DNA of 63,989 nucleotides, counting the filler, from Perkinsus olseni (taxonomy: Eukaryota): assembly GCA_013115125.1 (NCBI GenBank). It is 5 parts of 5 records of this genome, joined end to end, with 100 filler letters (N's around TTAATTAATTAA, not from the genome) between each part and the next. Parts side by side here need not be neighbours in the genome. Positions count along the whole stretch, not along the records: positions 53,899 to 63,989 come from JABANN010000897.1; 4 more parts are not named here. One strand, written 5' to 3'. Of this stretch, positions 1 to 63,989 are shown one piece after another (the first letter of the stretch is position 1; the number at the start of each line of letters is the position of its first letter). A model generated the notes under the pieces. That model was not told where the DNA came from. It was given only the letters and a program-made list of their open reading frames with translations, and searched no databases. The position numbers and the translations under genes are program-made.

Positions 1-1
1 C

Positions 2-9604: not shown

Positions 9605-9642
<38 letters not shown>

Positions 9643-26398: not shown

Positions 26399-26430
<32 letters not shown>

Positions 26431-26897: not shown

Positions 26898-26997
26898 NNN
26901 NNNNNNNNNNNNNNNNNNNNNNNNNNNNNNNNNNNNNNNNNTTAATTAATTAANNNNNNNNNNNNNNNNNNNNNNNNNNNNNNNNNNNNNNNNNNNN
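26898..26997. other. Artificial scaffold linker
   Basis: N run + TTAATTAATTAA + N run. Confidence 0.97.
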
Positions 26998-27200
26998 CCA
27001 TTGCTGATGATTTACTTGATGGTACGTTGATAATTATACCTGTCATCATCATAGCCAACATCAGTGCAAGGACTAGAAGTAGTACTACTGGGATTACCGT
27101 CTCTTGTTATTATGGCATCACTATCCTTCTCACTGTTAACAACAGTACTGTGCTGCTGCCCTTCTGACAGCTGTTCGACTGATGAGGATGATGACGCCAT
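26998..27200 (-). CDS. 5' end of a hypothetical gene, truncated by scaffold edge
   Basis: ATG at 27200 reading MASSSSSVEQLSEGQQHSTVVNSEKD, followed by a GT donor. Confidence 0.4.
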
Positions 27201-27516
27201 GGTGATGATGATGATGCGAAGGACGACAACACTAGTAGACGGCAATGTTATTGGTGTATACCACACTAATAACACAACCATTGATGATTATGATAACAAG
27301 AATGACTACTATCATTGTTATGGACGATGATGATGATAGTTGCGAGCGACAAGAAAACTTGTCATCATAAATCCGATCATAACGACAACAAACCTGTACA
27401 TTGGTCATGTCTCTCGAGTATGATGATGACAATGATGACGTGTATAAAAACTGTTTAAAAAGTCTCATAGTGGTAGATGCTAACCATCTCTACCGATGAC
27501 TATGATGATGCCATCA

Positions 27517-28979: not shown

Positions 28980-29024
<45 letters not shown>

Positions 29025-29188
29025 ATATTACGTATCATGGCAACTACTGCTGAATACTGCTGGTCGGAAGGTACGTCCATGGAAGGAGCCTTTCAATGAT
29101 AGACCCAATAATGGTCTATTATTACGTACTTGTCCGGTATGGATCTGATGGTGGAGACCACGATAATGACGGTAGTAGTAGTAGTAGT

Positions 29189-29221
<33 letters not shown>

Positions 29222-29824
29222 CTATTACATCCATTATTCTATCAGCGACTGAGTTGCCTTCGGAACCCGAGTTCATCATTAATACAGAATGGTAGGGGCA
29301 GCCATCTGACCTAGTATGGCCAATCTCCTTCTTAATATCATTAATAACATTCATTTGTAGTAATGATGGTGTCATAATGTTAGCCATAACGTAATCATTA
29401 CTTATAGCCTTCAAAACGTTAGTTGGATTATGCCCAAGACCCAACATACCATAACCACCATTATCTTGTATAACACTGCCATGTAAGGTAATAATCCATG
29501 GTCCTTTACCACCAATAGGGATGTACGGGTTACGAGTATCATCAGCATAGAAATGACACCAATGCTCACATATACTCTTAATAAGCTGCCCCTCAGGTAC
29601 ACGATAGGTGGTATTACCATCTAATGTACTCCAAACTTCATGAGCATTAATAATAGCCAATGTTAGATTATGATCACGACCAAGGAACCTGATGACGATG
29701 ACCAACATTAACTACGATGCATACTGAGGTGGTAGAGGTAGTACTACTTTTCAATAATATCATCCGATAAACCAATAGTCTCCTTGGGCCCAGCAGCAGC
29801 TCTCATCTGACGGAGTAGATCCAT
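27517..29824 (-). CDS. Class-III PLP aminotransferase, L-lysine 6-aminotransferase-like, with C-terminal LOR/SDH linker-like domain
   Basis: Start MDLLRQMRAAAGPKETIGLSD; motifs FYADD..PYI..GPW, DNGGYGMLGLGH, MANIMTPS, NSGSE, KGSFHGRT, EAVMGEG, IDSVQ, SKAINGG (PLP Lys), YGNTMT, VIHGGENALRFTPHF. Last exon LRGHLFDSQLVNSVLDIVE. Confidence 0.9.
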
Positions 29825-40383: not shown

Positions 40384-40483
40384 NNNNNNNNNNNNNNNNN
40401 NNNNNNNNNNNNNNNNNNNNNNNNNNNTTAATTAATTAANNNNNNNNNNNNNNNNNNNNNNNNNNNNNNNNNNNNNNNNNNNN
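40384..40483. other. Artificial scaffold linker
   Basis: N run + TTAATTAATTAA + N run. Confidence 0.97.
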
Positions 40484-40870: not shown

Positions 40871-43800
40871 TCAATCAAAAAACTGTAAAAGCCCTATAGT
40901 TGTTCGAAAAGAACGACGGATGTTGTAATTTCCACGGTCGTGTTCCACTTGCCCGAGCTGTTGACGTTCTGCCTGTTGGGAATGTTCACTCACCCCAAAA
41001 GTATCCATCTCGAGGACGTCACCTCCTGACTGCATCATCTTGTAATACTGAACCAACAAGTCTCGTTCTTCAGGAGATCGTCCAACTTCACGAAGTACTT
41101 CTCCGACGACATATCCTACTCCCAACGCATCTTGTATGAAATAGAGATGATCCTGGAGTCGATGAAGCCAGCCAAACTGATCTTGTTCTAGGGATATAGT
41201 ATGATCGGATAGACGCTTAAGGTAGCCTCTTCGATAACTTGGGTAATCCATGATGAGCTCGACAGCCCGCCTGGGACTTAACCCTCGTGGGTCATCACAG
41301 GCCTCATAGAGAGCTGTAATCATACGTCTATCATCGGCAGTCGTAGATAGCGGAACAAACCCTTCTTCAGAGCTCCTATCGACCAAGACGAAGCGTCTAC
41401 AATGATCGACAGGTGTTTGGAACTGAGCTTCTAGAGGATGGTCTTCTGGACTTGGAATATGGTGGCTTGACGATACCTTCGGAGCAGGTGTGTTGGTTTT
41501 TTGACTATCAGCACCAGCGCTACAAGGGCGTAAAGCATCATTGACAGATTGAACTCGTGGTTCTCCACTATCTTGTGATGCTGGTGGGTGTGAGGTAGAG
41601 GTTATCTCGGAATGACTACGCCGCTGCTCGCGAGTGTTCCTCTCAGATAGTGAAGGGGAACTACCACCGATGTCATAATGAAAGGCTGCCGGGAAATTCA
41701 GATGTACCAGACGGTCCACGTTGATACGAGTGGAAGGACTGGGAACGGGCGGTCCACTCGGCAGGGCTTTCAACAGAACGGTGTTGCCGCTTACACTATC
41801 TATCACATATGGACCACGCCAACGAAGTGATAGTTTGCTCGCTCGTGGAGAGGTTCTTACTCCAACATAGTCACCGACTCCGTAATCTGGCGAAGTTCGG
41901 CCTTGGTCATACCTATCTTTGGCTTTCAGACGACTATCCAGCAGAGCGAGGCGAACACAGGCATGCGCAGTTTTCATGGCCTCAACCCTGTCGACCGCCG
42001 CACCGGCATCGATCTCGAGGTCAGTGACCTCATCAGCCGCGGACTGATTCAATAGCAGGTCTGGCAAGGCTTGAGGGTTTCGTCCACCATGGGTGATATA
42101 GTATGGTGAGTGAAGGCGACCAACACCGGGGTTAGTATTGTGAGCATAAGTGACTGCTTGCAGATACTGGGGCCAACGATTCTCTCTACCACTGCAGATG
42201 ATTGAGAGAGCTTCAAGAGGGAATCTATGCCCTCGCTCACATTGCCCGTTGAACTTAGGCCTTAGAGGTGAAGTTCGTTCTACGACAACATTGCCGATCT
42301 TATAGATTGAATCTAGCAAAGAGTTGCAGAACTCTCTGCCACGATCCGATCGTATCGATCGAAAATATCCATGATTGCATATGACTGCCTCGTACAAACA
42401 TTGACCTACCTCAGGCATACTCTTGGTACGCAGAGGTCGAGCAACGATGAAGTTCGAATATAGGCAGATGGCATGTAGGATATATCGAAATGGATGGCCT
42501 TCAACGTCACTATCGCCTGGTGGCATCTCGATTAAATCCACACCAATCGCAGTGAATGGTTGTGTATAGATCGATGTACGAAGGAAACCGGCCGTGGCAG
42601 TACCGGACTTCTTGCGGAGTTGACATCCAAGGCAACGTTTGCAGAACTTCTTCACGCTCTTGGCGAGACCGGACCACCAGAAGGAACGTCCCACAGCTGC
42701 CAAAGTAGCTTCTCGACCACGGTGCGCGCTATCCGGTTGAACATGAAAGTAACGTAGAAACGTTAGCTGGTGTTCAACAGGTATCACGAGCTTCTCAACA
42801 TCTTCAGGTAAATCCCAGGAGCCCTCGTACGGCGCACACATCAACAAGGCATCATCAGAAGGGTCGAGTCTATAGTAGCCATCGTGGTTTAAATGTGAGA
42901 GTTGTTGGATAATCTGACTCAGGACAGGGTCTCGTCGCTGAGAGCTGATGATCGTCTGGCGACTTGGCAGATGAAGTGGTGGTGCTTCTTGGTGGGTCAC
43001 CACGACACACAGATTAGACCGAAGCACTGCCGTAGAGAGTGCCGAAGAGAGCTTAGCGTCATGACGGCCTGAAGTTACAGGAGAGACCCTTCTCTTCTTC
43101 GCAGGTGGTGGGTTGTGGCTGACAGCAGTTCGTGGAGGAGGCTTGGGCGGATCAGTCGAGAGGCCAACAGGATGTCGACTGAAGTAATCGACATTAGCTT
43201 GTAAAGGACCTTTACGGTGTACGATATCGAAGTCGTACTCGCACAACCTCAGAATCCAGCGACAGAGACGAGGCTTCCGTGGAGACAAGTTCAACAACCA
43301 ACGTAGGTTGTTATGATCAGTGGCAACGACAAAATGACGACCATAGAGATATTGATGCCATTTCTCAACCGCCCAGACGATAGCCAACAACTCGTGTTCT
43401 TCTGTGCTCCACTTGGCTTCTGCGGCTGTCAGAGCACGACTAGCGAACCGTACAGGTCGCTCAATCCCATTACTATCAACTTGGGAGAGAGCGGCACCAA
43501 GACCGCGTGAGGAACCATCAGCTTGGAGAAGGAAGGGCTTTGAGAAGTCTGGATGGACGAGTAACGTGTGAGAGAGTGACCTTTTGAGATCCTTAAACTC
43601 TTCTTCTTCGTTACGACCCCAGTGCCAGGGTACGTCAGTACGAATGAGTTGTCGAAGATGAGAGCTTCTCTGAGCATAATCGCATATGTGAGCACGGTAA
43701 TATCCACTGAGACCGAGAAAGTGTTGTAGATCTTTTCGGCAAGTAGGGCGAGAGATTGCCTGAATCTCAGCCGTCTTCGCCGGATCTGCAGAGATGCCCT

Positions 43801-45964
43801 CCTTAGAGACTACGTAACCGAGGTAAGTGATATGATCATAGCCGAAATAGCATTTTGACGGCTTCAGCTTCACCCCTCGTTGTGCGCAACGTTCGAACAC
43901 ACGAGAGAGATGTTGGAGATGCTCTGTCCAGGTAGACGATGATATCAGCAAATCATCCATATACGCGCACAAGAAGTAGCCGCTGTCAGCTGTAACTTCA
44001 GAGAGAAGGTCGGCAAAGACACTGTTGACTGTGCGCATGAATGTCGCTGGAGCTCCGACGAGGCCGAAGGGCAACCTCAAGTATTCGAAAATACCATATG
44101 GAGTGGTAAAAGCCGTTCGACTAATACTATCGGGAGCCATACCGACATGCCAGAAGCCAGAGTACATATCCAACTTACTGTAGAAACATTTTTTATTTAA
44201 CCTCGACAGCAAAGTCTCTATCTGGGGTAAAGGATAGGCGTCAAAGCGAGTGATGCTGTTGAGACGCCTGTAGTCAATTACCAGGCGAGGCCTCACTTTC
44301 TGACCGTGCTCATCTTTCTTGGCGACCACCAGGATTGGAGAAGACCATGAACTCTCACTGGGGCGACAGATGCCCTCAGCGATCATGCGATCGATCTCGC
44401 TCTTGACGAACCGTACGTGGCTTTCAGGAAGTGGATACGGAGTGCAGTATAGCGGCTCGTGATCACCAGTGTCGATGTGGTGTTTGTATCCTCGGATCTC
44501 TTCGAACTTCTCACCCGGTAAGTGGAATATTCGGCACCACTTGGTGATAACCTTCTTCAAGTCATTCTTCTGGGCAGTACTTAAGTTGGTGCATTCATCA
44601 AGACGGATTTCCGCTAACACCTCCTTGGCGTATTGCTCGTCGCTTCTCGGAAGCTTCTTATCAACATTCTCATCACCGATTGGTGGTAAGTCACGATTAG
44701 CATCATCTTCGAAAGCGTGCTCACGGGCCTCATTCAAGAGCTGCCTCTCTCTAGTCAACTCATCCTTGAGAACATCGGAGAACTCCTGTGGGTCGCGATT
44801 AATCACACGACCTAGGGGTTCTGAAGCCGAAACCTTCGTTGGCGAAGATGAAGTATTAGCAACGAGTACCGTGAATGGTGTTGAAGAGTTCGCAGACAAA
44901 GCACTCTGGTCGATGGGTCCCTCGACGAGTGACAACGAAGCAGACGGACAATTGACTCCGACAAGCCAGGGGCGTTCGGGTAATTTCAAAGCATGATGAA
45001 CGAAACATGCCTTGATTTCATTCACACCTGGTGAGATTGTCTGCGTCGATGCTGCTCTGATGACATCATAGGTGCTTATCACCAGGGCACTCTTCTCGCC
45101 ACCGGTAGTTGCAGTACACTTGAGTGTAGAATGCCAGCCTCCATGTTCGAGTTGAACCACTCGGGTATGGCAATTGATCTTGGCATGTAATAGTGTTAAG
45201 TGATTAATACCAAGAATCAAAGGCCATTGTAGATCTTTGATAATGGGACACTCTACTCTCACGCAATGAGCATCTACGCCATTGAAGACAAGAGGTACTT
45301 CTTGCAGCGAAGAAGATGTGAACGAAACGCCTTCTGCTGCCATACCAACTTCCACAGGCGCGTTGATAGTTCGACAGCAGAAGCCATGGCGTTGAAGCTG
45401 ATTAGCATAATTTTCGCTCACAAGACTAACACTGCAGCAGGTGTCAATAAGCGTCTTGACAGCTGGTAGATCACAACGAGGTTGAATCAAAGCAGTCAGA
45501 ATATGTCTCCTCTGAGCATCAACGTCATGATGGCTACCCGTGTTACCCACGGTAACAAATAAAGGCATAGCCAAGAACTCATCATCATCCCGAGAGGTGT
45601 GGCGATGGGACCCTCGGCTCTCCTGTCGACGGGACTTTCTCTCATCGTCGTCTTGAGCAGGCTCTCTCTCACGCTCACGAGGTGGAGATCTCGGCTCATG
45701 CTCGTCTGCAGAGCTTTGGGGCTGAGTGTCAAGGCAGTTCACACGGAACCTTCTTCTGGTCGGCTTATTCCCTTTTCCTCGGCGACCGTTGCCTTGACGA
45801 TAAGCAAAGCCCTTGCCTTTAGCAGTCCCCTTCGCCTTGCCCGCACCTTTATTCCGTCTTCTAAGCCACCATTCACTTTGGCCATAGGAATGGCTCTCAA
45901 ACTGTGGCATAGGTCCAGAGTTATTGAAATTCTGCGAGCCACCGAGGCCATTCGCAGGTGTCAA
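40871..45964 (-). CDS. pol: Ty3/Gypsy pol polyprotein (protease-RT-RNase H-integrase)
   Basis: LIDTCCSVSLVS (protease), RLVIDYRRLN, LPFGLVGAPATF, YMDDLLI (RT), ADGSSRGLGAAL..ELLAIVWAV..TDHNNL (RNase H), H..HRG..CKRCLGC, IGVDL, RSDRGREF, NGQCERGH (integrase). Confidence 0.97.
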   Translation of the reverse strand: MTPANGLGGSQNFNNSGPMPQFESHSYGQSEWWLRRRNKGAGKAKGTAKGKGFAYRQGNGRRGKGNKPTRRRFRVNCLDTQPQSSADEHEPRSPPREREREPAQDDDERKSRRQESRGSHRHTSRDDDEFLAMPLFVTVGNTGSHHDVDAQRRHILTALIQPRCDLPAVKTLIDTCCSVSLVSENYANQLQRHGFCCRTINAPVEVGMAAEGVSFTSSSLQEVPLVFNGVDAHCVRVECPIIKDLQWPLILGINHLTLLHAKINCHTRVVQLEHGGWHSTLKCTATTGGEKSALVISTYDVIRAASTQTISPGVNEIKACFVHHALKLPERPWLVGVNCPSASLSLVEGPIDQSALSANSSTPFTVLVANTSSSPTKVSASEPLGRVINRDPQEFSDVLKDELTRERQLLNEAREHAFEDDANRDLPPIGDENVDKKLPRSDEQYAKEVLAEIRLDECTNLSTAQKNDLKKVITKWCRIFHLPGEKFEEIRGYKHHIDTGDHEPLYCTPYPLPESHVRFVKSEIDRMIAEGICRPSESSWSSPILVVAKKDEHGQKVRPRLVIDYRRLNSITRFDAYPLPQIETLLSRLNKKCFYSKLDMYSGFWHVGMAPDSISRTAFTTPYGIFEYLRLPFGLVGAPATFMRTVNSVFADLLSEVTADSGYFLCAYMDDLLISSSTWTEHLQHLSRVFERCAQRGVKLKPSKCYFGYDHITYLGYVVSKEGISADPAKTAEIQAISRPTCRKDLQHFLGLSGYYRAHICDYAQRSSHLRQLIRTDVPWHWGRNEEEEFKDLKRSLSHTLLVHPDFSKPFLLQADGSSRGLGAALSQVDSNGIERPVRFASRALTAAEAKWSTEEHELLAIVWAVEKWHQYLYGRHFVVATDHNNLRWLLNLSPRKPRLCRWILRLCEYDFDIVHRKGPLQANVDYFSRHPVGLSTDPPKPPPRTAVSHNPPPAKKRRVSPVTSGRHDAKLSSALSTAVLRSNLCVVVTHQEAPPLHLPSRQTIISSQRRDPVLSQIIQQLSHLNHDGYYRLDPSDDALLMCAPYEGSWDLPEDVEKLVIPVEHQLTFLRYFHVQPDSAHRGREATLAAVGRSFWWSGLAKSVKKFCKRCLGCQLRKKSGTATAGFLRTSIYTQPFTAIGVDLIEMPPGDSDVEGHPFRYILHAICLYSNFIVARPLRTKSMPEVGQCLYEAVICNHGYFRSIRSDRGREFCNSLLDSIYKIGNVVVERTSPLRPKFNGQCERGHRFPLEALSIICSGRENRWPQYLQAVTYAHNTNPGVGRLHSPYYITHGGRNPQALPDLLLNQSAADEVTDLEIDAGAAVDRVEAMKTAHACVRLALLDSRLKAKDRYDQGRTSPDYGVGDYVGVRTSPRASKLSLRWRGPYVIDSVSGNTVLLKALPSGPPVPSPSTRINVDRLVHLNFPAAFHYDIGGSSPSLSERNTREQRRSHSEITSTSHPPASQDSGEPRVQSVNDALRPCSAGADSQKTNTPAPKVSSSHHIPSPEDHPLEAQFQTPVDHCRRFVLVDRSSEEGFVPLSTTADDRRMITALYEACDDPRGLSPRRAVELIMDYPSYRRGYLKRLSDHTISLEQDQFGWLHRLQDHLYFIQDALGVGYVVGEVLREVGRSPEERDLLVQYYKMMQSGGDVLEMDTFGVSEHSQQAERQQLGQVEHDRGNYNIRRSFRTTIGLLQFFD

Positions 45965-45996
45965 TTGAACTCCGGACTGGTAACCCTTACCGTTCC

Positions 45997-46962
45997 CTAA
46001 CGGCCACCTGGGTGATAATTTATCACTGATAAAGCCGGCGAGCTCACCCCAGCCGTTCTCTGGGACATCCGTTGAGGGTCATTCATACAATTACGAGCAA
46101 AATGCCCATAGTCACCACAGTTGTAGCACTGCACAGCGGAGCACCACACCGAAGTTGGTACTTGGTCTGACGCCGGGTCAGAGGAAGCTCCTTTTTGAGG
46201 TGGGTGAAAATGCTCGTAACGACGTGCAGCTTCGATCAACAACTGGATCGAATCATAACGGGCTTGGCGGGCAATAAGCTCCTTCCTTATATCTTCACGA
46301 AGCTTCACAGTAAATTGAAGCTGGAGCTGTATATCATCAGACTTCTTCACCCCATCGGTTTCAGATGACACGATGAAGATACCGGGGATGAGTTTCTGTA
46401 AGTCATGATGTAGGTCGAGGAAACGGACTGAGAATTCTTCAACAGTCTCAGAGTCCTCTTGGGCCATGCCATTGAAACGGGTCAACAACTCGAGGGTTTT
46501 TTCCTCCTTAGGCTTGCCCCTCTTGGAAGCAAGGTAGTCTTGGACCTTCACATAATATTCCAAGAACTGTTTGTCATCCTCGGCAGCATCGAGGTCTGAA
46601 CGATACTGTGCTTCGGCAAGCCTTATCAAGTCGAAAGATCGACGGTCGTTGATCACTTGTTGCTTGAGGAGTGCGACCCAGTGCTTAGGGGGAGTACCCG
46701 TTGTTTCTAGTAGCGATCTTAGCTGAATGAGGAAGTCATCCAAGTCATCCGTGGAGTGGAAGACAGGAAGCACGATGTCGGGTAACCGCAAACCCAATGA
46801 TGATGAATGATTCGTCGCAGCATTAGAAGTAGAGCTTGTACTAGTACTTCTTTCCTGCGCGATAATAGCGACTGCCTCGGTGAGTTGAGTCACAATGTAA
46901 CGGGTTCGAGTGAATGTAACTGTAGAGGGTGTAGGCCTAGCGACTGGAACTTGGTAACGCAA
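45997..46962 (-). CDS. gag: Ty3/Gypsy gag with CCHC zinc knuckle (no ATG start seen)
   Basis: QEDSETVEEFSVRF major-homology-like motif; CYNCGDYGHFARNC. Confidence 0.9.
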   Translation of the reverse strand: MRYQVPVARPTPSTVTFTRTRYIVTQLTEAVAIIAQERSTSTSSTSNAATNHSSSLGLRLPDIVLPVFHSTDDLDDFLIQLRSLLETTGTPPKHWVALLKQQVINDRRSFDLIRLAEAQYRSDLDAAEDDKQFLEYYVKVQDYLASKRGKPKEEKTLELLTRFNGMAQEDSETVEEFSVRFLDLHHDLQKLIPGIFIVSSETDGVKKSDDIQLQLQFTVKLREDIRKELIARQARYDSIQLLIEAARRYEHFHPPQKGASSDPASDQVPTSVWCSAVQCYNCGDYGHFARNCMNDPQRMSQRTAGVSSPALSVINYHPGGR

Positions 46963-47448: not shown

Positions 47449-49872
47449 ATGAGCAGTCCACTCGCCTTTATCGCTCTTCTCTGTTGTTGGAGCCTCTCTG
47501 TATTCACTGGCTGTAGCGGGAAGAACGGGAAAAATGGAGGAAATGGGAAGCCCGGGTCTCCCAACATCACTGCGAAAGGGTGAGTTTGAACCTAAATGGA
47601 CTGGTGAGGGCTAACACGCGTGCCGTTGATTCTTCCACCCGAAGGAGCCGCGGTTTGAAGGAACGAATGAGTGGGATTGTTCACGAGATTCATACGCAGT
47701 CCGTCTGTCAACAAGAATACCCATGGCAGAATTACTGCCCTGAGAATTTCCAGTCTTTCTGTTGTTTGGGCTGCCGTCGGGAATCAGATAGTACCATCGA
47801 TCTATATTAACAATTGCTGCCTAACTAAGTCTGGAGTCCTCTGTTATAATTCCAACCTCAGAGTCACCACAGCAGCTAGTGGGAAGAGATGGGCAAATGT
47901 CGATGTGGAAGTATCCACAGGACGTGCGAGGAGTCCGCAAGTCACGCTGGCGACGGGTATCGTCTGATGGGAGCGCTTGGCTCTCCGGCTGTTGCCGTTG
48001 GTGGCAGATTCTGTCAGTCGGTGGCCAATCGTCGGCTACGGAGGGGCTGTCACTCAGGGAGATTTCCTTAACTTGCGAGAAGAACAGATAACCGGCATCG
48101 TCGATGCGTGAGGATTGAGGACCTTATTCTTGGAAAATAATTGATCCACGATGATGAGGTTGTCTAGGTTCTTCGGTCCTAACGGGCTTGATTACAACAT
48201 GGTACGATTGCCGATACATTCGACGGTGAATGGTTATGTTTTTGACAATGTTTCCGATGACTTCGAGCTCAAGTATTTTGATTATAACCTCACTGGTGAT
48301 AGAACGAGTGGCAAGATGAACATGATTGAAAAAATACTCAAAAAGAAGAGGGACGTTAAGATACTTGGTGAGGTCGCGCGTCGTGGGCGAGCCAGCTTAC
48401 GAGGGTTTGCTGTCTATCTCAGGCAGTGTTTGGTCACCGCCGTCGTGGATGAAACTCGGCAATCACAGTATGAATGGCAGTCCGAATCCATGCCTTAAGA
48501 GAGATCTAAGATACCACGAGGTGTGGGCAAAGTATCTTGTTACATGGGTAGGTAGGGATCATTGGCTACCCTCTTCAGCTCCACTCAGGTCGACGCATAC
48601 GAGAGGCTTGGAGTGCCAATATGGGCCATCACGCAGCAGAATGAGCCGCAGTAGGCCGACTGTTCTTCGAGGCCAGGAGGAGCACTCTCCTGCAGGAACT
48701 ACTTCACACAAAGCTGGGGTACATGTATCTTCGAGCCCAAGGCCCAACTTGCCTTCATTCGAGATCACCTCGGCCCCGCTATGAAGGCGGCTAATAAAAG
48801 CACCAAACTGTTCTTTAATGACGACGACAAGAACTTCCTCCCAGATGTGGCGAAGCTGATCCTCGAAGACGAAGTTGCTGCTGGGTAGCCTCACAGCAGC
48901 AGTGCATTAGCGATGAATATCAAGGCCCTCTGTCAGGTTTGTGGACGGCGCCGCGATTCACTGGTATACGTTTGACCAGTACGCTGCCTTGAAAGACTAT
49001 AAGGAAAAGTATCTCAAGAAGTATACTCTAATCAGCACCGAAGCGAGTGAGTTGCCTTCTGCGTCCCGAGTTCGACGTAATGACATTACGGTAATGTCCC
49101 TTGCCAGCTAATGGTGATCCGATCCAGGAAAGTTTCTTCAAGACCGACTGGGACCGAGCGATGCACTATGCCCACGGCACGATAGTTGACTTCTTCCATG
49201 GAGGGTCTACTGTGTTCATGGATTGGGTCATGACTGGGGTAAGTAGTAGAAGCCGATATGGACCGTATCAGTACCATATCATATGGTACGTATCCAGTGA
49301 ATCTTCATGCGTGGACCGCGCATAGATCGCGATTCCGCTGGACCTTTTCCCCGTGAGGTGTGCTTGCTGACCTCTCTCAGACCAAAAACCTCATCACGGT
49401 CAATAAGGATAGCAGCACAATAACGGTGAGTCAATCTTGTCGGCCTCTGTGTGTATCAATTTCTGCTCACCAGAGATCTCACCGTCCCCTTGTATTCAGT
49501 TGAACACGCCTTACTACACGTTCGGGCAAATAACTAAATATTTCAAACCGGGTTACTCCGTCTTGACGTCACTCAACGTCATCAGCCCAGGCCAGCAAGC
49601 TGATGGTGTATTCCCAGCTGGGATTGAGGCAATGGCAGCGATAAACCCGTCGAGAACTGAGATCGTTATTGTGGTAGGGATGCCTCCAGAAGCGCTCCTC
49701 TCCACTGTTCTGGGTTCAGGTCCTGTGTGATGATCGCCATGAGAGTAACTCGACCATTGCTGAGCTACTGATCGAACTAGACCTCGGCGGTGGACGCTAC
49801 TCGACCATTGCTCTAAAAGATGTCGAGCAACGAAGTGTGACTACCGTGGTTCTCACAACTGATAAATTTTGA
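47449..49872 (+). CDS. Glycoside hydrolase family 30 (glucosylceramidase-like), multi-exon
   Basis: IVGYGGAVT, FFGPNGLDYNMVRLPIHS, GSVWSPPSWMK, WAITQQNEP (acid/base Glu), DGAAIHWY, LISTEA (nucleophile Glu), WDRAMHYA, FMDW, YYTFGQITKYF. The exon near 48060-48200 is unresolved. Confidence 0.88.
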
Positions 49873-50343: not shown

Positions 50344-50415
50344 GGTTCTATGGTGTAACGGTAAGCACTCCAGACTCTGAATCTGGCGATCTGGGTTCAA
50401 ATCCCGGTAGAACCT
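50344..50415 (+). tRNA. tRNA-Gln (CTG)
   Basis: Cloverleaf: acceptor GGTTCTA/TAGAACC, anticodon stem CCAGA/TCTGG with loop CT-CTG-AA, T-loop GTTCAAATC. Confidence 0.95.
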
Positions 50416-53798: not shown

Positions 53799-53898
53799 NN
53801 NNNNNNNNNNNNNNNNNNNNNNNNNNNNNNNNNNNNNNNNNNTTAATTAATTAANNNNNNNNNNNNNNNNNNNNNNNNNNNNNNNNNNNNNNNNNNNN
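53799..53898. other. Artificial scaffold linker
   Basis: N run + TTAATTAATTAA + N run. Confidence 0.97.
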
Positions 53899-55324: not shown

Positions 55325-58300
55325 ATGCGTTTGACGGTAAAGGTGATGGACGTCCAATTCGATATCGAAGTTGGAAAAGGACAACAGCAAGCCCGCTGGC
55401 TAGGTTTGGTGGCAGCTAGCAGGTGGGGTTACGCCAGCCATTGTCTCAGCTGGAAGTCATCCTCGCCCCATCCCCAATGCCACGCTGCTCTCCTTATTGG
55501 AACCATTCGTAGACAGTGTTGGCACCCGCTCGATAGCGGAGTATCGTTCGATAAGGCCCTCTGGCGTATCGAAATACTGTATGAAGCATCATGTTTACCC
55601 ACGCTACTCTGTAGCAGCTTGCAAGCTCTCCTCATGCTTCCAACGTTCTTTGACGGAAATTCAACGCCTCACAGTCGTGTTTTTTAAAACAGCTCCTCAC
55701 TGCTATTGGAGTTCTCAAGATACGCGGAGCAAGCGTCCAGCCCCGGTACCTTCCTCTTACCAACTTCCGTCAAGACCATCGACAATAGAGCGATACAACC
55801 ACATCAGACTCTGAGGGCCGCGGCTGTTCATGGAGGTGAGAGGACGCCCTGCTGGATCCGCCCCGAGGGCTTGAGAGCTCCTTCGTTCGCTCGAAGTGCG
55901 ATGGTGCGTGAAACCACTTCCGTATTGGTTTTTTTATCCCTATTTCCCCATTCGAGAATTTATGATCATATCGCCATAGAACACCGATAAAGTATCAGTG
56001 TATTGCTCGTCAAAGATACGATTGTGGTCGACCTTTCCGTCCGTGGCGATGTGCTAGCGAGAATGGTAAATTGTGAAGATACCATGTAAGCAAGAGAGGT
56101 CCCTGGTTCAAATCCTAGTGACGGCATTAGTTATGCGAATTTACAGCCAGCCGCAGGAGGGATAGCCAAAGCCTTCGAGACCCTCGGTATCTCCGACGTA
56201 AAACAACAGCAGTCCGATCTCTGGCGGCAGGTGATGGTTTTCCCATTCACCTTCCTGTCGATGCTGTATCGTCACGTTGCCTTCAGGAAGCCTACGAGAA
56301 GGGGTCGAACCTCGTAAGATGCCGAGTCCGATGGATTCCCGGCAAGCTACATTTGAATGAACTCCCCGTTAAAGTGAGAGGGCCAATGATATTACTAAGG
56401 GCGCGTTGCTGCTGCGGACACTATGCATATGATACCGACACTCTCTACTTAATGCGTCTACCAGTACCGTACTTCTACCACTTCGCATCACAGCTGCTAC
56501 TGCCACTAAGTTTTCTTTGCACAGGTCTGCGGTAACTACATGGTCGATAATAAATGGTTGAAGCTGTTCCCCCAAGCCGAGTTTGGTGGTCCTTTCGACC
56601 TCCCTCTGGAGGCTGTTGATGCCGGTGATGGTGCGGGTTACCATTGGGTGAGGTCTGCTGCCCATCCACCACTCGACCTGGCCACCCCTCCCTCAGGATG
56701 CCCTCATCCGAGCTCCTCCCGGAACGGCCGTATTCAAAGTGGGTTTCATTCTGGTTGTTCTCTCATCGTATGCCAAGTCGAACCCTCCTCACAGAAGCTC
56801 CTCTCTGCTAATCAGTTTGTGCTACCGGACGGAAAGAAAATCGTATGTAATAACATACCGGTCATTGGCAACACGGAAGATGATCACGCTCAGAACATCA
56901 TGCATTTCAAGTGGGACGTAAGCTTGGGAATTGACGACTTTCTTGGCACTATCGAGACTATATATTGGACGCGTATGAAAGAGTAAAAACTTGGTACCGT
57001 TTCACTGATGACACCGACCAAGATTCGGATGGTTGTCACGAGGACACTTGTATTCAGGCGCCGATCGTGGAGGACCCCGAGTTTGCCTTCGACAAGGTTA
57101 GTACAGTCAGTAGCGGAGGGAGGGCTGCTTCTGTAAGGTGCAACAGCGGATATAAACTCAGTATCACTTCCTTGTCATTTCGTCCATCGTCGTGAATTGG
57201 TTGGTGAGAGTGGAGTAATGATTCTATCAACAGTTTGCAGAGTCGTCCTACTTGGTGTAGCGATTATGTTTGTTTATCATCCCGAGCTCTACTGTAGCGT
57301 TGATGTTTTCAGAAGGACCCTAGGTTTAGAGGGGACTGGGAGAAATTGAAGTTGACCTGGTTGGAAGGTGAAGATCAAGCGAACGTAAAGGTGAGTACAA
57401 GGAGGTATCGGGTTCGATTCCCGCACGTTGCATTTACATCCAGGATGTCCTCATCGAGTTCTATGAGGCTTTGATTGACCTGTTCGATTCCTATGCATTC
57501 ATGGGAGTCCAAGGTGAGGGCGGTGGTGTCTCGATGTCGGTGTTGAGTGTTGCATCCTCTGCAGCTGGGGAGGGCGAGGGCAGCACAATAGGGGCTGATG
57601 ATTTTAAACATCTCATGGTAGACCAATCTGCGACAAGTATGGGCACTAACCGTTCTACGTTTATAAGATACAATGCGGATTATTGACCGGACAGGAGGGT
57701 GGTGTGATCGATTGGTCCCCCACCATCAAGGGATGGCTTTGTGAGATAAATCCGGCATTATTCTCAACTTCGAGACTTTGCCTACAACAGAGGTTGGAGA
57801 GGTAGGTTAAACGACTTTGCCGCCGCCACTCGTTACGTTTTCTCACTGATCGCGGCTGCATCCGCTGGGCTACCAGGCCGTCCTGATCATCCTTCGTACA
57901 TCTCTTCTATGTTGCTCTCTTCACTTCGGATGAGCTAGCTATCGTAAAAGCAAAGTCCTAGACCTCCCTTTAGGTCCTTGCAATCGCTTGCGTCGTTCGA
58001 CTGCTGGCCCTTGTTCCCAGGTACCAGTACCTGGACCTCCTCGTCAGGGTGGCTATCCGAGTCAGTGGACATACTCAGGGTGAGTCAGCCATTGCTAATT
58101 TCGTGGCGAGTGACTGGCCCAGACGGAGTACCACCAGCGGACGAAGCGGTATTTCAATTTATAAAGGAAGTGCTATTGCCAGTCATGGACGAGTAAACCT
58201 TCTCACATCAAATGGGCGGCGATGGTTCATCTGTCAGATACGATGAGGACTACATACGAAGGCAGGCTGTTGAAAAAGAGAATCTCATCGTCCTGCAGAA

Positions 58301-59130
58301 GGTTTGCATACTCCATCCCCACGTGATATTTCTTTCCCTTAGTATCGTACAACTCTGCGATCTCTGCATTTCCTACTCCAGCAGCCCTGCCCCTTTGAAG
58401 ATGATGAGATGCTCGTAGCACAGGATTCACTCGAGTACCTATCCAGGGTCGCCTGAATTTTAATATCAGTGCTCAGTCTCTAATTTCTAAGGACCTCGGA
58501 TCACTGACCCTTGAATAGTTTCGAGCCATTAATGCAGCTGAGCTTCTGTGTGGTAGGTTCGTCCTGAAGCTCTGCAGTGAAGGATATTACACTGGAGAAG
58601 GTATTGATAACGAATCACAAAAGCAGATTATTTATTGTCAGGTGAACATGTCCCGACACCGGAAGGTATACTGACCGGTGAGGAGAGGCTGGAAAGGCAA
58701 CACGTTGACAGCATGCTACGGGTAAATCTGTTGTGCTCGGCCTCAGTTACTCTCATCGACCTGTCAGATGTACGACGGTCATTTGGCTGACGTCCTCCGT
58801 AAGCGTCCGATGAATACGGAAAAATGCGGAATGTAGTTGTCGGTCAGTCGTGTCGTTTGTTGTCATGGTTCTCAGGTATTTCTGGGAATTCTTTGAGATG
58901 TTCATGTATCTATGCGATTCCATCAAAAGCAGCGTCGCGATCCATGATGCTATACCGAGGACCTTAGGAACTCTAATGGCAATGCTGGACCACATGACCT
59001 CACACGGGATTCAGTTACCAAGGTCAGTGTCATCAGGCGTCTCAGAGAGCGGATTTACATTAAATTACAGGATTTACGATGATGGTAGGGACATTTTTTT
59101 TGACTAAGCCGTTTTTCGGCGTTGGACTTA
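55325..59130 (+). CDS. Large multi-exon hypothetical protein (3' end approximate)
   Basis: Start MRLTVKVMDVQFDIEVGKGQQQARWLGLVAASR, then many GT-AG-bounded exons (FAFDK/DWEKLKL, DVLIEFYEALIDLFDSYA, VLRYFWEFFEMFMYLC). Confidence 0.55.
56085..56126 (+). pseudogene. Orphan tRNA 3' half (Thr-TGT-like)
   Basis: TGTAA-GCAAG-AGAGGTC-CCTGGTTCAAATCCTAG-TGACGGC-A matches anticodon loop to discriminator; no 5' half upstream; T stem mismatched. Confidence 0.55.
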
Positions 59131-60037
59131 AAACTCACACACACATTCGGCTTTCTTTCAGTCTGGAGGAAACTATCACTGAACCAAGCGAGGAGGAGGA
59201 GGTTGAAGAGGCAGCAGACGGGGATGAGAATGAGAAAATCTCGTGAAGTGCAAGCATGCATGAGCTTCCAGTGTATGCTTAGCTTGTTGAGTTTCACAAG
59301 TCGGTGTCACTTAGACTCTAGTTGATGCAGGCCGTGGGTTCAGACAGGTTGGGCCTGCGCGGGGGACGTGGCTATTCTTAGACGTGATGGACATTCCCTG
59401 GACCTTACTGGAGCCTTCTGAGACACACTTCACCAGCATACACAACCGGCTGTATCCTCGATTTGCACCTCCCAGCACTCCGCGTCGCTCCCTGCTCGCC
59501 AAAGAAAATGTTTAAAGGAGTTTTGCCGGGTTTGAATGGTCTGCTTTTGCGGGAAGCCTGAGGCGGAGGTTTCAATATGATCACAATACCATCATTCTAT
59601 ATCAACTTGTCAATTGAGCCCTCGAGTACTCAATTATGAAGGAAATTCTCACCGATGTGTACCGACTCACTCTAATTGGGACGTGGTTGCACACAGCGTC
59701 GAAGGTTTTCCCAGACTCAAACCGCCATAACTAGCCACAGAGGCGTCAGAGGCCAATTTGCGTCGCACTATGAAAAGACGAGTTGATTATTTGCCACCTC
59801 AGCTATCTCAAGGATATCACCCAGTGTCCAATAAAATTGGTTCGGATGTAGCGTATGGTTCATCATCGATGGAATAGTCGTATAGACAAATGTTGCGGTC
59901 TAAGGTTAAACAAAGACAAAGATCAATGTCCTACACAGTCCTCATTCGGTTGAGATGTGGCGAAGAAGTGGTATGGAAGCGAGGAGAAAATATTTCGAAC
60001 CAGTCATCAGGAGGTCACGGCGCTCTTTTATCTCATT

Positions 60038-60109
60038 GACCTCGTGGCGCAATGGAAGCGCGTCGGTTTCCGGAGCCGAAGGTTGCGGGTTCAAGTCCCG
60101 CCGGGGTTA
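60038..60109 (+). tRNA. tRNA-Arg (CCG)
   Basis: Acceptor GACCTCG/CGGGGTT, D arm GCGC/GCGC, anticodon stem TCGGT/GCCGA with loop TT-CCG-GA, T arm GCGGG-TTCAAGT-CCCGC, followed by TTTT. Confidence 0.93.
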
Positions 60110-60585
60110 TTTTAGTGAGCGATGAATCCGCGTTTTTCGAGAAGACGTCAGCGACGTTGAGAGGTTGATGCACGCTCGACTCTGCGTCCATCAACTTCTG
60201 CTCCAGTGATCCTCACGTGTAACCCCTTTACATATGTGATCGAACTTAGTCGACTGGGTGGTGTGGAGAGGACCTGAGGCTTCAAGGTCTCCACCCAAAG
60301 CCCCAGTCACGGGACAGGAACCCGGCTAACTGATACACCGCTCACACGGGTCCGTCCCGTCACCCAGCCAACTAGAAAAGAAATCTTGCTTATCACCTCA
60401 ATCTTTTGGTGTAAGACCTCTAAACTCCTGTAACAATCACCGCGATCCAGTCTCGCTCGCCCGACCGAATCACTTTCGCTTCAGTTGACCCTAGTCTCTA
60501 GCGAGACTCTCCAAGAAGAGGTTCAAGTCCCGCCGGGGTTATTTTAGTGAGCGATGAATCCGCGTTTTTCGAGAAGACGTCAGCG
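60088..60585. mobile_element. 366-bp insertion (60154-60519) flanked by a 66-bp direct repeat (60088-60153 = 60520-60585)
   Basis: Identical GGTTCAAGTCCCGCCGGGGTTATTTTAG...GAAGACGTCAGCG at both positions, 432 bp apart. Confidence 0.75.
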
Positions 60586-62426
60586 TGCAAGAACTTCCAA
60601 CAAAAAAACCGATTCATAAGCGGAAACAAAATCAATTCGGAACCCACCACTTTCACATTCAGCACTGAAGCTGCAGCCGATGGAGTTGAGCGTCTTGTGG
60701 ACTCTCTGTGCCATTCGACTGTCCCGGCAAAACCCAGCCACCGGGTGACGGTAGTCTAAGTTTACACGGAGCATCGACCGGAGTAGCGACGTCGGGATGA
60801 GGTCTAAGGAGTCTAACACCGCTGCTGACCACGCAATCCATGACATGTTGGTGTTCCGCAGTGAAACCCTGGAGAGGTCATTAATTACTTGACGTATCAG
60901 CTGAGACGATCCAGATAGAAGCGCCACTTGACAAAGCATATCCACACAATCTTGCAGGACATCAACATGAGGCTTGGTAGCACGCATGCTGGCGAGGATC
61001 ATCATCCCCACGTCATGCACAGGAAGTCGGAGTGCGAGATCCGCCCGACAGAGAGACATCAAGGCCATCAAAGCATCCTGATGGTTTGGCGGCTCAGACA
61101 AGCGGGCTAGCACATCAGCAGCAACCTGCTCCGACGGGCGACGATTGCAAGTAGTCATAAATCCAACCGAAGCGAATAGATCCTCCGTCGACATCTCCTC
61201 ATGTAACTCATCAAGCTTACCCACCGCAATCTTCCAGAGACCCACACCATCGAAGTTACATGCAAAGAGATAATGAATTAGCGACAAAACAGCCTCGCCG
61301 TTGGGGACCAATCTTCCAGGATCTTTCTCGATGCACCCTTCGACCTTGGCCATAACCTCTGTCGGAAAGTACCGCATTTTCACCAACTTGATAATGAGCA
61401 GATGGAAACTCCTGTGACTGACGTTTGACAAATCGATAAGCTCCGGAATGCTCCTCGCGAGATGTTCAATCTCCTTCGTTGCTTTACCCAGGGGGTAGCC
61501 CGCCGACACCGAGCCCAACACACCAATACGATCTTCCCCACTGCCGGGCAGCCTGGCGTCACTCGCCGCAACAGCTATCGACCTCCACAGACCATTGGAG
61601 ACGTGGTTGAGGAAGGCCAGCGAGAAGCCCAGCGCTATCTGCTTCAGTTGGAGTAAATTGGACCGAGAGAGATCCTGAGCCAGTAGGAAATCTTCCAACT
61701 TCGCAAAGTTGCGATCGAGCTCCGCAGTGCCGATAGCGTTTTGCGTCTGACCAAGCCTCGCCAAAGATATACACGAGATAGCGGCACTGTGGACATCCCA
61801 GCCGTTGGCTGAGCCGCCGAGGGTCAAGTCCAACCTCCGCACATCAGCAGCTTTGGAATGCGCCCGCGCCAGGGCGTTGAGGATCATTGCGGTCGTCTTG
61901 CCATCGCCGGACGATATCGAATCGACAATTTTACCCCAAATTCTGTCGATCCATGCATCATTCCCTTCCGCGTAGATCCGTGAGAACTGTGCCCAGGAGG
62001 CGGCTGGGACATCGTCACGGTTTGCTATCTCCTCCATGATGAGGAAGTGGGTATCTTCGTCCGTAGGAGGGACGAGTTGGGCGATTTGCGCTATTGATTT
62101 TGGCGTCATCGTCGGCAACGACTCTGGCAGGCGCTGCACGAGGCCCCTGGTAATCTGACAAAACAATAGGATCTCGCGAGAAACCACTGACCAGCAGCGG
62201 AGGTCGCGAGTTCGACCCCCAGGGTGGGTATTATTACGCCATTAATATGTTTCCTCAAACTCGAGTGAATCTTCTCTTTACTCCGTCCCAAAGCCGATAC
62301 CAACACAACCGCATCATCAATCGGTATCGCGTGGAGGTTCTTCTCGATGTGATCGAAGAATACCCGATAAGCTTCCCTGGTGACCAAAGGGCGATGGACC
62401 GTCGCCGCCGAGGACCACATCGCCAA
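60580..62426 (-). CDS. Helical-repeat protein with partial C-terminal RAP-like domain
   Basis: 535-aa ORF plus upstream ORF 62106-62426; helical repeats (TAMILNALAR, AAISCISLARLG); C-terminus LNSIGCSFSAECESGGFRIDFV..LLEV resembles the first half of RAP. Confidence 0.6.
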
Positions 62427-62827
62427 CTCCTGAACGACAAAATCAGAGGACGAAAATAGGGACGGGGAAGGGAGAGATGATGATGATGGTGACTGCCACT
62501 GACTATGCTCGTCTACGTGCTGACAATATTAATATCGTAAACAACAGAGCCCATGCATTACGGTAGAGCTGATAGAGCGATAGTCTGAATGACGTGTCCA
62601 TGTATTTGTAGCATCAGCATTTGTCATTGTATTTTCAGCTCGTGTAGAGCCCACGCCCTCTAACGAGTGCTTTGCTTTACTACTATGATGCGTGTCCTCT
62701 TTGAACGGAAGGGAAGTGTACATAACCTTATAATATTAGTCTGATGACAGAGCTCATGTGTGAGTACTATCTAATAATGAAAGTAATAGATCATGGCAGC
62801 ATTGATAGCTAGTATTCGACTAAGGTC

Positions 62828-63560
62828 TCACTCATGTCCGAGATTAGCGAGAGTTGTGGTAGTCAATCTGGTGCTGTAAACCGAGGCAGGCGCAGATCGA
62901 CAGAGACAGCGATATTCTCGCGAGCAAGTCATACTTCCACGAGCAATTGCCGTGGTTGCTGTGGAATAAGGTAGAGACCAGAAAAGCCCACAGGAAGCCT
63001 CAGTCAGGTGACGGAAGGACACGCAGATTGATACAAGCTGCGATTCCATAGTTCTCACCTTCCCCGTCCACTGGTGCAGTTTCGAGTAGAAGTGAGTGGC
63101 GGCCACTGCTGTCAACGCGTCCCTCGCATACTTGTTGTCTTCGGGGAGATGGGCACCCAAGAAGTGACAAAGTACAGCAGCCTCGCTCGGTCGAAGCTCA
63201 GCAGCCTGACATCATGTAAGGTACGTTTGTATCGCTGGTCCTATCTTGCTCTGATGAGAAGCTGCGCAATCGTTGATGATGCTGAGACAGATCTTAGATC
63301 CCAAAAGGCATAACCCTGCTGTTGTGTCCACAATCAGCCAATATCTTCGCAACGGATAAGACCGCTCGATGACGGGTATAATCATGTATGATCCTCACCG
63401 AGGAAGCAAGACGGCGTGCGATTGCCGTCCAGTCCTTCTCCGATCCTCGTTGCTGCTGCTGCTGCTGCTCGCCTCGTGATCTCAGAATAAGAGCATCCCG
63501 ACACAGCTGGCATTCTCGACCGAGACGAGCGTAGAATGAGGACTCTGAAGATTCGCCCAC
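62828..63560 (-). CDS. Hypothetical protein, multi-exon (approximate)
   Basis: Minus ORFs 63294-63560 and 62828-63160 with splice-like junctions. Confidence 0.35.
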
Positions 63561-63989
63561 CTGATAAGGCGTTATGCTACATCAGTTGTCGACCATTACT
63601 CACATGCTTAGCGATTCGCCTGCCATCCGACCCGGGTTCGATCCTCGCACCCTGCCTCCCCTTCGTTGATGCATGTGCCAAAATTCTCCGACTCATTAAC
63701 GGAAAAAAAGAAACCACGCGAGAAATTACCACTCAGTTCGACTGAGCTGATAATAGCGAGGAACAGAAAGGACGTTTGCAGCGTCTACATAACAGAATCG
63801 AGCTGTGGTCATACTAGCCTCGCCATCAACACCCTACAGTAACAGTATATTAGCCTCTATGTCGTTCACTGTCCATTCTTCTTGTGTTCTGCTGCCCCTA
63901 CTAAACCCGTCCACATAATTATATCACATGAAGTTTTTTTCTAATTTCTCCGTAGCGATTGTGACTCAGGGCCCGAAACTTGGTGTATG

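What the first reader, a model, noticed from the sequence alone, without database searches (positions are those of the whole stretch)
60038..60585. Insertion at a tRNA-Arg 3' end with an att-like 66-bp duplication starting in the T-arm
Seen: an intact tRNA-Arg(CCG), and a perfect 66-bp direct repeat that begins at the T-arm GGTTCAAG, includes the tRNA 3' end, terminator and the stop codon of the convergent gene, and brackets a 366-bp insert. Both genes remain intact. Known: intact tRNA plus displaced 3' fragment is the attL/attR signature of tyrosine-integrase islands in prokaryotes; some eukaryotic elements target tRNA genes (Dictyostelium TRE, Dada, Tx1-clade), usually with much shorter duplications. 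Inference: footprint of an undescribed tRNA-targeting non-autonomous element in this protist.
Basis: partly seen in the sequence, partly recalled or inferred. Interest (0 to 1): 0.75.

Follow-up and report, generated by a model that had tools for sequence, protein, structure and literature searches.

The report
Single insertion beside a tRNA gene
A 366-base stretch of anonymous, non-coding DNA sits between a tRNA-Arg gene and the end of the neighbouring gene in a Perkinsus parasite, flanked by a perfect 66-base duplication of the target; it looks like one insertion event, and nothing yet shows that it is a mobile element.

Summary
An intact tRNA-Arg(CCG) lies at 60038-60109. A perfect 66-nt direct repeat (60088-60153 and 60520-60585) brackets 366 nt. 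The repeat runs from the tRNA B box, through two T-runs, to the stop codon and last codon of a convergent five-exon gene, which is intact. The organism is a Perkinsus close to P. olseni.

The insertion reading is supported. Both outer junctions, tRNA-repeat and repeat-gene, are functional. The repeat-gene junction is shared at protein level by two other P. olseni gene models.

The att/integrase reading is disfavoured. The repeat extends 44 nt past the tRNA into locus-specific DNA. The insert has no ORF, no family match, no terminal inverted repeats and no tail.

tRNA-targeting transposons (Dada) are already described in Perkinsus marinus, but they make 6-7 bp duplications inside tRNA genes (PMC3706591), which does not fit here.

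The insert has no second copy in the 64-kb window. No Perkinsus DNA collection was available, so copy number and the empty site stay untested.

The most likely cause is a one-off insertion at a staggered break, with a mobile element or an assembly artefact as rivals. Interest is modest.

The parts
60038..60109 (+). Intact tRNA-Arg(CCG) gene. The B-box-like GGTTCAAGTCC is at 60088-60098.
   Evidence: ARAGORN; Rfam RF00005 at 64.6 bits, model positions 1-71 of 71; B-box pattern hit.
60088..60153 (+). Repeat copy 1 (66 nt): tRNA positions 52 to the 3' end, T4 (60110-60113), T5 (60133-60137), a displaced copy of the neighbour's stop codon (TCA, 60148-60150) and of its last codon.
   Evidence: the repeat finder, 100% identity; bases read directly.
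60154..60519 (.). 366-nt insert: GC 52.5%, non-coding, no family match, several local hairpins, no terminal inverted repeats, no A-rich or T-rich tail, no second copy in the window.
60520..60585 (+). Repeat copy 2 (66 nt): an orphan tRNA 3' fragment without a T-stem partner, plus both T-runs. Its last 6 nt are the working last codon (CGC) and stop (TGA) of the convergent gene.
60580..63696 (-). Convergent protein-coding gene for a conserved Perkinsus hypothetical protein. It has five exon blocks; the last exon is 60583-62154 and the stop is 60580-62582's first three bases, 60580-60582. It is intact.
   Evidence: tblastn of P. olseni protein P0001 (720 aa) maps residues 1-720 onto 63696..60583 in 5 blocks at 87-96% identity; homologues; alignment with a shared C-terminus LLEVLAR.

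Best explanation
This is a single, fairly recent insertion event in a Perkinsus (olseni-like) chromosome. Originally the tRNA-Arg(CCG) gene and the convergent gene were packed tail to tail, with only 38 nt between the tRNA 3' end and the neighbour's stop codon. The DNA broke with a 66-nt stagger: one strand at the first base of the tRNA's B box, the other just inside the neighbour's last codons. Both single-stranded overhangs were filled in, or a stalled replication fork switched template and returned 66 nt upstream. A 366-nt piece of unrelated non-coding DNA was joined in between without microhomology. The result is tRNA - 66 nt - insert - 66 nt - gene. Because the whole shared 3' zone was duplicated, the tRNA keeps its 3' end and terminators and the gene keeps its last codon, its stop and the first 60 nt of its 3' UTR. 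The event is therefore neutral and could survive. Shown: the anatomy, that both genes are intact, that both outer junctions are the functional ones, and that the insert is non-coding and unique in the window. Inferred: the staggered-break or template-switch mechanism, the recency, and that the insert is filler DNA rather than a transposon.
For: The perfect 66-nt repeat is flush against the insert on both sides, with no shared bases at either junction. The tRNA is full length and high-scoring. The gene maps exon by exon to the 720-aa P. olseni protein and ends at the stop inside copy 2. Two other P. olseni gene models (2 of 2) end with the same LLEVLAR, so the repeat-gene junction predates the event at least for its 6 coding bases. 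The repeat covers 44 nt of non-tRNA, locus-specific sequence, so it was copied from the target. No CCA follows the tRNA part of copy 2, so it is DNA-derived and not from mature tRNA. The insert shows no terminal inverted repeat (17 short inverted pairs listed, none terminal). It has no significant similarity to the tRNA or to either flank. No Rfam family reaches E<=1, and the one sub-threshold hit inside the insert is HOTAIR_2 at E=1.5. Pfam found nothing for 5 of 5 insert peptides. Its stop-codon counts are ordinary: 2-11 per frame, with shuffles matching as well in 29-48% of 2000 trials. It has no protein relatives and no other copy in the remaining about 59 kb of the window.
Against: Insertions of a few hundred bases flanked by target duplications are usually made by mobile elements, and the copy number of the insert in the genome was not testable here. 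The source of the 366 nt is unknown, so template switching cannot be verified. The insert folds better than shuffles (z -3.3 and -4.0), which filler DNA need not do. The left breakpoint coincides exactly with the first base of the B box, and the two breakpoints are flanked by a weak inverted motif (TTGCG ... TGCAA, 4 of 5; my estimate is p about 0.06 after allowing for four comparisons). Both hint at a directed cut rather than a random one. The junctions have no read support available to me.
Confidence: 0.4

Rival explanations
1. The 366 nt is a non-autonomous mobile element, or a 5'-truncated retroelement end. It was inserted by an enzyme supplied in trans, and the two strand cuts happened to lie 66 nt apart. 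The enzyme could be a non-LTR reverse transcriptase/endonuclease working by target-primed reverse transcription, or an aberrant event of a tRNA-directed transposase such as Dada. Pol III factors on the B box may have guided it.
For: The target duplication is flush with a discrete insert. The left breakpoint lies at base 1 of the B box. The insert is more structured than shuffles. [quoted passage not shown] An intact Ty3/gypsy gag-pol in the window shows that this genome carries reverse transcriptase and integrase genes.
Against: The window holds no second copy. The insert has no terminal inverted repeats, no poly(A) or simple-repeat tail, and no TG..CA ends. A 66-nt duplication is about ten times the Dada value of 6-7 bp, and by my recollection outside the usual range of every DNA-transposon superfamily. 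Dada sites in Perkinsus lie in the A box, inside the tRNA, and split it, whereas here the tRNA is whole. No RT or transposase remnant is present.
Confidence: 0.25
2. Assembly artefact. The A-B-A arrangement was created when a fragmented, heterozygous polyploid genome was assembled, scaffolded or gap-closed, and does not exist on any chromosome.
For: The sequence comes from a draft of roughly 13-kb contigs. One of them has an internal 97-N gap inside a 14-bp tandem repeat. Perfect identity of the two copies is what an algorithmic duplication would give. No reads were available.
Against: Both junctions are flush, without Ns. The insert must be joined to the 66-mer on both of its sides, which a simple failure to merge overlapping contig ends would not produce. 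No other perfect bracketing repeat of this kind occurs among the 12 repeat families found in the 64-kb window. The structure leaves both genes exactly intact.
Confidence: 0.15
3. Remnant of a site-specific (tyrosine-recombinase) integration at the tRNA 3' end. The two 66-mers would be attL and attR cores, and most of the element, including its integrase, has since been deleted.
For: The pattern is an intact tRNA plus a displaced 3' fragment starting in the T-arm. Tyrosine-recombinase retroelements (DIRS1-like) are listed for Perkinsus marinus in a table of PMC3266345 (passage).
Against: The identity block runs 44 nt past the tRNA, through locus-specific spacer, to the neighbour's last codon. 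An incoming attP would have to carry that exact host flank. There is no recombinase ORF or remnant. Only 366 nt lie between the repeats. By my recollection, DIRS elements and Cryptons are not tRNA-directed and do not leave long duplications.
Confidence: 0.05

Closest known systems
Dada DNA transposons of Perkinsus marinus (Dada-tL, -tIA, -tIB, -tG, -tY; Kojima and Jurka 2013, PMC3706591, passages read)
   Same: Same genus. They insert at tRNA genes, lack terminal inverted repeats, and non-autonomous derivatives exist (described there for zebrafish).
   Different: Dada makes 6-7 bp duplications and inserts inside the tRNA, at the A-box site TAGCTC in Perkinsus, splitting the gene. Here the duplication is 66 nt, the tRNA is whole, tRNA-Arg is not among the reported targets, and the insert has no transposase. 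Terminal sequences of the Perkinsus Dada families could not be compared, because figures are not held.
Prokaryotic genomic islands and prophages integrated at tRNA 3' ends (attL/attR)
   Same: An intact tRNA on one side, and a direct repeat of its 3' part on the other side of the inserted DNA.
   Different: This is a eukaryotic host with no integrase and a 366-nt cargo. The repeat extends 44 nt beyond the tRNA into unique flanking sequence, which points to duplication of the target rather than attP x attB identity.
Filler-DNA or templated insertions at double-strand breaks, and replication template switching (FoSTeS/MMBIR); named from my own knowledge, no paper read here
   Same: A one-off insertion of unrelated DNA, flanked by a duplication whose length is set by the stagger or the re-entry point. 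There are no element hallmarks.
   Different: The donor sequence was not identified. No microhomology is visible at the junctions, which MMBIR would usually show.
tRNA-directed retrotransposons of Dictyostelium (TRE5, TRE3) and yeast Ty3; recalled, no paper read here
   Same: Insertion is positioned relative to Pol III factors. The left breakpoint here is the first base of the B box, and the insert lies 44 nt downstream of the tRNA.
   Different: By my recollection those elements have short duplications (about 5-16 bp), recognisable coding or terminal sequences, and many copies.

Membership tests
Tyrosine-integrase integrative element (attL/attR at a tRNA) | Recombinase gene, or a remnant of one, between the repeats | tested here: not met
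   The insert is 366 nt with 2-11 stops per frame. Pfam found nothing for 5 of 5 insert peptides. phmmer of frame -2 against 1.84 billion representatives gave only an unrelated TPR-repeat protein. Frame +2 gave no hit among longer proteins.
Tyrosine-integrase integrative element (attL/attR at a tRNA) | Repeat equals the shared attP/attB core, confined to the conserved tRNA 3' part | tested here: not met
   Only 22 of the 66 nt are tRNA. The other 44 nt are spacer plus the neighbour's stop and last codon.
Tyrosine-integrase integrative element (attL/attR at a tRNA) | Empty site and occupied site both occur in the population; the same element sits at the same tRNA elsewhere | not testable with these tools
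   No Perkinsus DNA or read collection was available. The collections on hand hold phages, plasmids, E. coli, and bacterial and archaeal genomes.
Dada transposons | 6-7 bp target-site duplication | tested here: not met
   The duplication is 66 nt, against 6-7 bp (PMC3706591).
Dada transposons | Insertion at a family-specific site inside the small-RNA gene, splitting it | tested here: not met
   The tRNA is complete. The insert begins 44 nt after its 3' end.
Dada transposons | Termini shared with an autonomous copy that encodes the DDE transposase | not testable with these tools
   Repbase consensus sequences and the paper's figures are not held. No Dada-like ORF was seen among the 10 large window ORFs scanned with Pfam.
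TIR DNA transposon / MITE | Terminal inverted repeats and a short fixed duplication | tested here: not met
   None of the 17 inverted pairs pairs the two termini. The duplication is 66 nt.
SINE / non-LTR retroposon | 3' poly(A) or simple-repeat tail; internal A and B boxes at the 5' end (for a SINE); many copies | tested here: inconclusive
   There is no tail: the ends read ...CCAAGAAGA on the plus strand and ...CTCAACGT on the minus strand. The tRNA model does not match the insert at E<=10. It is single-copy in the window. Genome-wide copy number was not testable.
Solo LTR | TG...CA ends, 4-6 bp duplication, similarity to LTRs of full elements | tested here: not met
   The ends are AC...GA. 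The insert has no similarity to the contig carrying the Ty3/gypsy element beyond a borderline 39-nt match in an intron-like stretch.
Any Rfam RNA family | Covariance-model match | tested here: not met
   Only the tRNA passes. The one hit within the insert is HOTAIR_2 at 14.7 bits, E=1.5.

The most novel reading that the evidence does not exclude
The 366-nt insert is a member of an undescribed family of small, non-coding, structured elements in Perkinsus. They would be placed next to Pol III genes by a factor-guided nuclease that cuts at the edge of the TFIIIC-bound B box and again beyond the terminator. This would give unusually long (tens of nt) target duplications that regenerate both the tRNA 3' end and whatever abuts it. 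That would be a eukaryotic, duplication-based counterpart of prokaryotic tRNA-att integration.
Probability: 0.1. Interest if true: 0.7.

Novelty: new member of a known kind. Interest (0 to 1): 0.3.

Why it matters
If the event is a one-off, it is a tidy natural example. In a tightly packed convergent tRNA/mRNA gene pair, an insertion survives only when it duplicates the shared 3' zone; otherwise it is ordinary. If the insert proves to be multi-copy and tRNA-associated, it would add a second, mechanistically different tRNA-directed element to Perkinsus, a genus already known for Dada. It would also give a marker for strain typing of an important shellfish parasite. The case shows too that an 'intact tRNA plus displaced 3' fragment' is not diagnostic of integrase action when the repeat runs on into unique flank.

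Tried and rejected
(1) Tandem duplication of the gene's 3' end. The insert has no significant similarity to the 815 nt after copy 2 or to the 636 nt before the tRNA; scores were 19-23 against shuffle means of 20.7-21.1.

(2) An inverted, degenerate tRNA inside the insert. Two short complementary matches to the repeat (15 nt at 87% and 14 nt at 86%) are non-collinear, and the best local score of 20 is within shuffles (17.5 +/- 2.2, maximum 30). The tRNA model gave no hit there.

(3) A captured coding fragment. Frame -2 looked open and contains 'EVDG'. However, stop counts are ordinary, Pfam found nothing, phmmer found only a TPR-repeat protein at E=5.5e-4 with 7 repeated stretches, and frame +2 had no hit among 482 candidates.

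(4) Vector, plasmid or phage contamination. blastn found no match in 72,556 plasmids or 50,697 phage records. One 24-mer of the insert is absent from the bacterial and archaeal genome collection.

(5) A second copy near the other tRNA. Insert bases 60180-60216 resemble 49445-49482, an intron-like stretch about 900 nt from tRNA-Gln, at 31 of 39. The score was 19 against 15.5 +/- 1.0 for whole-window shuffles under one scoring scheme, but below the shuffle mean under another (48 against 60 +/- 5.9). I treat this as chance.

(6) Relaxed ARAGORN with introns allowed gave 112 calls, evidently noise, and was not used.

(7) An intron reading. No GT..AG pair fits any cyclic permutation of the 432-nt unit on the gene's strand (read).

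(8) Literature. I found no paper on Perkinsus elements with long duplications at tRNA genes in searches. The Amoebophrya introner paper says nothing about Perkinsus introners. The cryptophyte polinton-like virus paper found no tRNA genes near integration sites.

Full report
**What is there.** The stretch 59700-60900 was read directly. ARAGORN finds two tRNA genes in the window, tRNA-Gln(CTG) at 50344-50415 and tRNA-Arg(CCG) at 60037-60110. Rfam's tRNA model matches the latter full length at 60038-60109 with 64.6 bits. The repeat finder reports one direct-repeat family in 59000-62000: two 66-nt copies, 60088-60153 and 60520-60585, 100% identical and 432 nt apart. The insert is therefore 60154-60519 (366 nt). 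The bases outside the copies differ on both sides (TTGCG/GAAGA before, ACGTT/TGCAA after), so 66 nt is the exact extent.

The repeat begins at tRNA position 52, the first base of the B-box-like GGTTCAAGTCC. It contains the last 22 nt of the tRNA, a T4 run immediately after the discriminator, a T5 run, and finally TCA-GCG. On the minus strand, TCA-GCG is the last codon (CGC, Arg) and the TGA stop of the ORF 60580-62187. Across the whole window, this is the only long non-low-complexity repeat of its kind among 12 direct-repeat families.

**Context.** The window holds 449 Ns. Four N44-TTAATTAATTAA-N44 linkers (at 13403, 26898, 40384 and 53799) show that it is a concatenation of five contigs of about 13.4 kb in decreasing order of size. 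A 97-N gap also lies inside a 14-bp tandem repeat. The feature lies in the last contig (53899 to the window end), about 6.2 kb from its start.

The 535-aa ORF next to the tRNA has four database relatives, all Perkinsus hypothetical proteins. Two are from P. olseni (96% and 92% identity), one from P. marinus (69%) and one from P. chesapeaki (61%). The organism is therefore a Perkinsus close to P. olseni. tblastn of the 720-aa P. olseni protein maps residues 1-720 onto 63696..60583 in five blocks at 87-96% identity, ending directly at the stop codon in repeat copy 2. The gene is intact. Both P. olseni proteins end with the same LLEVLAR as the window's gene, while the P. marinus and P. chesapeaki models stop 7-12 residues earlier.

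**Which state is ancestral.** Call the tRNA 5' part L, the repeat A, the insert B and the gene R. The order is L-A-B-A-R. L-A is needed for a working tRNA. A-R supplies the gene's last codon and stop, and that C-terminus is shared by two other, 4-8% diverged P. olseni gene models. Both outer junctions are therefore the old ones, and the simplest history is L-A-R, with only 38 nt between the tRNA end and the stop, followed by insertion of B and duplication of A.

The alternatives fail. B is not a diverged copy of R or of the left flank. It contains no remnant of the tRNA 5' part. Zero differences in 66 nt suggests a fairly recent event. This is only a modest constraint: by my estimate, roughly 2-3 differences would be expected if the duplication were as old as the split from the other isolates.

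**What the insert is not.**
- It has no second copy or significant partial copy in the rest of the window (blastn with word size 7; Smith-Waterman against shuffles).
- No Rfam family is matched; the best hit inside it is HOTAIR_2 at E=1.5.
- Pfam found nothing for any of 5 stop-free peptides taken from it.
- Stop-codon counts are ordinary (2, 3, 5, 6, 8 and 11 over the six frames), and 29-48% of 2000 shuffles are as open.
- Frame -2, read through with X, found only an unrelated TPR-repeat protein among 1.84 billion representatives.
- Frame +2 found nothing among longer proteins.
- It has no match in the plasmid or phage collections, and one 24-mer is absent from the bacterial and archaeal genome collection.
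- Its termini carry no inverted repeat, no TG..CA and no A- or T-rich tail.
- No CCA follows the tRNA part of copy 2, so the duplicated block was copied from DNA, not from mature tRNA.

On the positive side, its GC content (52.5%) matches the contig (50%). It also contains several local hairpins that make it fold better than shuffles on both strands (z -3.3 and -4.0).

**Mechanism.** The decisive structural point is that only 22 of the 66 duplicated bases are tRNA. The other 44 are spacer unique to this locus, up to the neighbour's last codon. An element arriving with its own attP would not be expected to carry that flank, whereas a duplication made from the target does so automatically. I therefore read the 66-mers as a target-site duplication, not as att cores.

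A 66-nt duplication is about ten times the Dada value and, by my recollection, far longer than any DDE transposase makes. It is within reach of three processes:
- fill-in of two nicks 66 nt apart, followed by end-joining of a captured fragment;
- a replication template switch that returns 66 nt upstream;
- target-primed reverse transcription with a distant second-strand cut.

The flush, microhomology-free junctions and the lack of any element hallmark make the first the best guess (confidence 0.4). By general knowledge, tRNA genes are sites of replication-transcription conflict, and this one is head-on with a Pol II gene. Selection also explains why such an odd product is seen. With 38 nt between the two genes, only an insertion that duplicates the whole shared 3' zone leaves both intact.

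Two details keep a directed cut alive. The left break is exactly at base 1 of the B box. The duplicated segment is also flanked by TTGCG...TGCAA, a 4-of-5 inverted symmetry; I put its chance probability at about 0.06 after allowing for the comparisons I made, so it is not significant.

**Comparison with what is known.** The finding calls the element an 'undescribed tRNA-targeting' one. In fact Kojima and Jurka (PMC3706591; I read the passages returned, not the figures or supplements) describe Dada DNA transposons with five tRNA-specific families in Perkinsus marinus. Those make 6-7 bp duplications. In Perkinsus they sit at TAGCTC in the A box, split the tRNA, are 4.7-11 kb long and encode a DDE transposase. 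None of these tested features is met here. Their termini could not be compared.

DIRS1-like tyrosine-recombinase retroelements are listed for P. marinus in a table of PMC3266345 (passage), but by my recollection they are not tRNA-directed. My searches found no paper describing long duplications at tRNA genes in Perkinsus. That holds only for the open-access library searched.

**What stays open.** No Perkinsus DNA was reachable. An assembly artefact cannot be excluded (I give it 0.15). It is unlikely, because both junctions are flush, the insert is joined to the 66-mer on both sides, and the product is functionally exact.

**Verdict.** The insertion with target duplication is supported. The att/integrase analogy is disfavoured. 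Mobile-element status is untested. Interest is modest (0.3). It would rise to about 0.7 if the insert proves to be a multi-copy, tRNA-associated family, which I put at about 0.1.

Noticed in passing
window 13403-13502, 26898-26997, 40384-40483, 53799-53898; also 36487-36583: The window is five contigs (13402, 13395, 13386 and 13315 nt, plus a last one cut by the window end) joined by N44-TTAATTAATTAA-N44 six-frame-stop linkers. A separate 97-N gap sits inside a 14-bp tandem repeat (36313-36721). Features must not be interpreted across these joins.
   Followed up: yes
window 40871-46962 (-): An apparently intact Ty3/gypsy retrotransposon. The gag ORF (321 aa) has a CCHC zinc knuckle, and the pol ORF (1697 aa) has RT, RNase H, an integrase zinc-binding domain and the rve core. 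No LTR pair of 40 nt or more was found in the contig, and the contig starts only about 390 nt beyond the end of pol. tRNA-Gln lies 3.4 kb upstream of gag.
   Followed up: partly
window 16290-16300 (+), 56105-56115 (+), 56301-56311 (-), 57411-57421 (+): The B-box-like 11-mer GGTTCRANYCC occurs 7 times in the window against 0.38 expected. Three hits are the two tRNAs and repeat copy 2. The other four, three of them in the same contig as the finding, are not called tRNA by ARAGORN, and for the three in 55500-58000 not by Rfam at E<=10. They could be orphan Pol III factor sites or tRNA relics, or they could be chance matches within coding sequence.
   Followed up: partly
window 60583-60822 (-): The C-terminal 80 aa of the convergent gene give a weak hit (E=0.14) to the first third of a restriction-endonuclease-like domain (PF18741, profile positions 3-32 of 96). 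The protein stops right there in all Perkinsus models. The domain may be truncated, or a downstream exon may have been missed; none was seen in 58600-60040.
   Followed up: partly
window 60180-60228 vs 49445-49491: A 39-51-nt similarity (31 of 39 identical) links the insert to a GT..AG intron-like stretch in another contig. It exceeds shuffles under one scoring scheme but not under another.
   Followed up: partly
window 60083-60087 and 60586-60590: The duplicated segment is bounded by TTGCG on the left and TGCAA on the right, a 4-of-5 inverted symmetry around the two breakpoints. Both breakpoints follow GCG. By my estimate this is not significant.
   Followed up: partly
window 1-13402 and 26394-29238: There are abundant (ATG/CAT)n, (CTG)n and (TAG)n trinucleotide runs. 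The other contigs also carry a nucleoside-transporter ORF (19269-20552) and class-III aminotransferase fragments (27852-29708).
   Followed up: no
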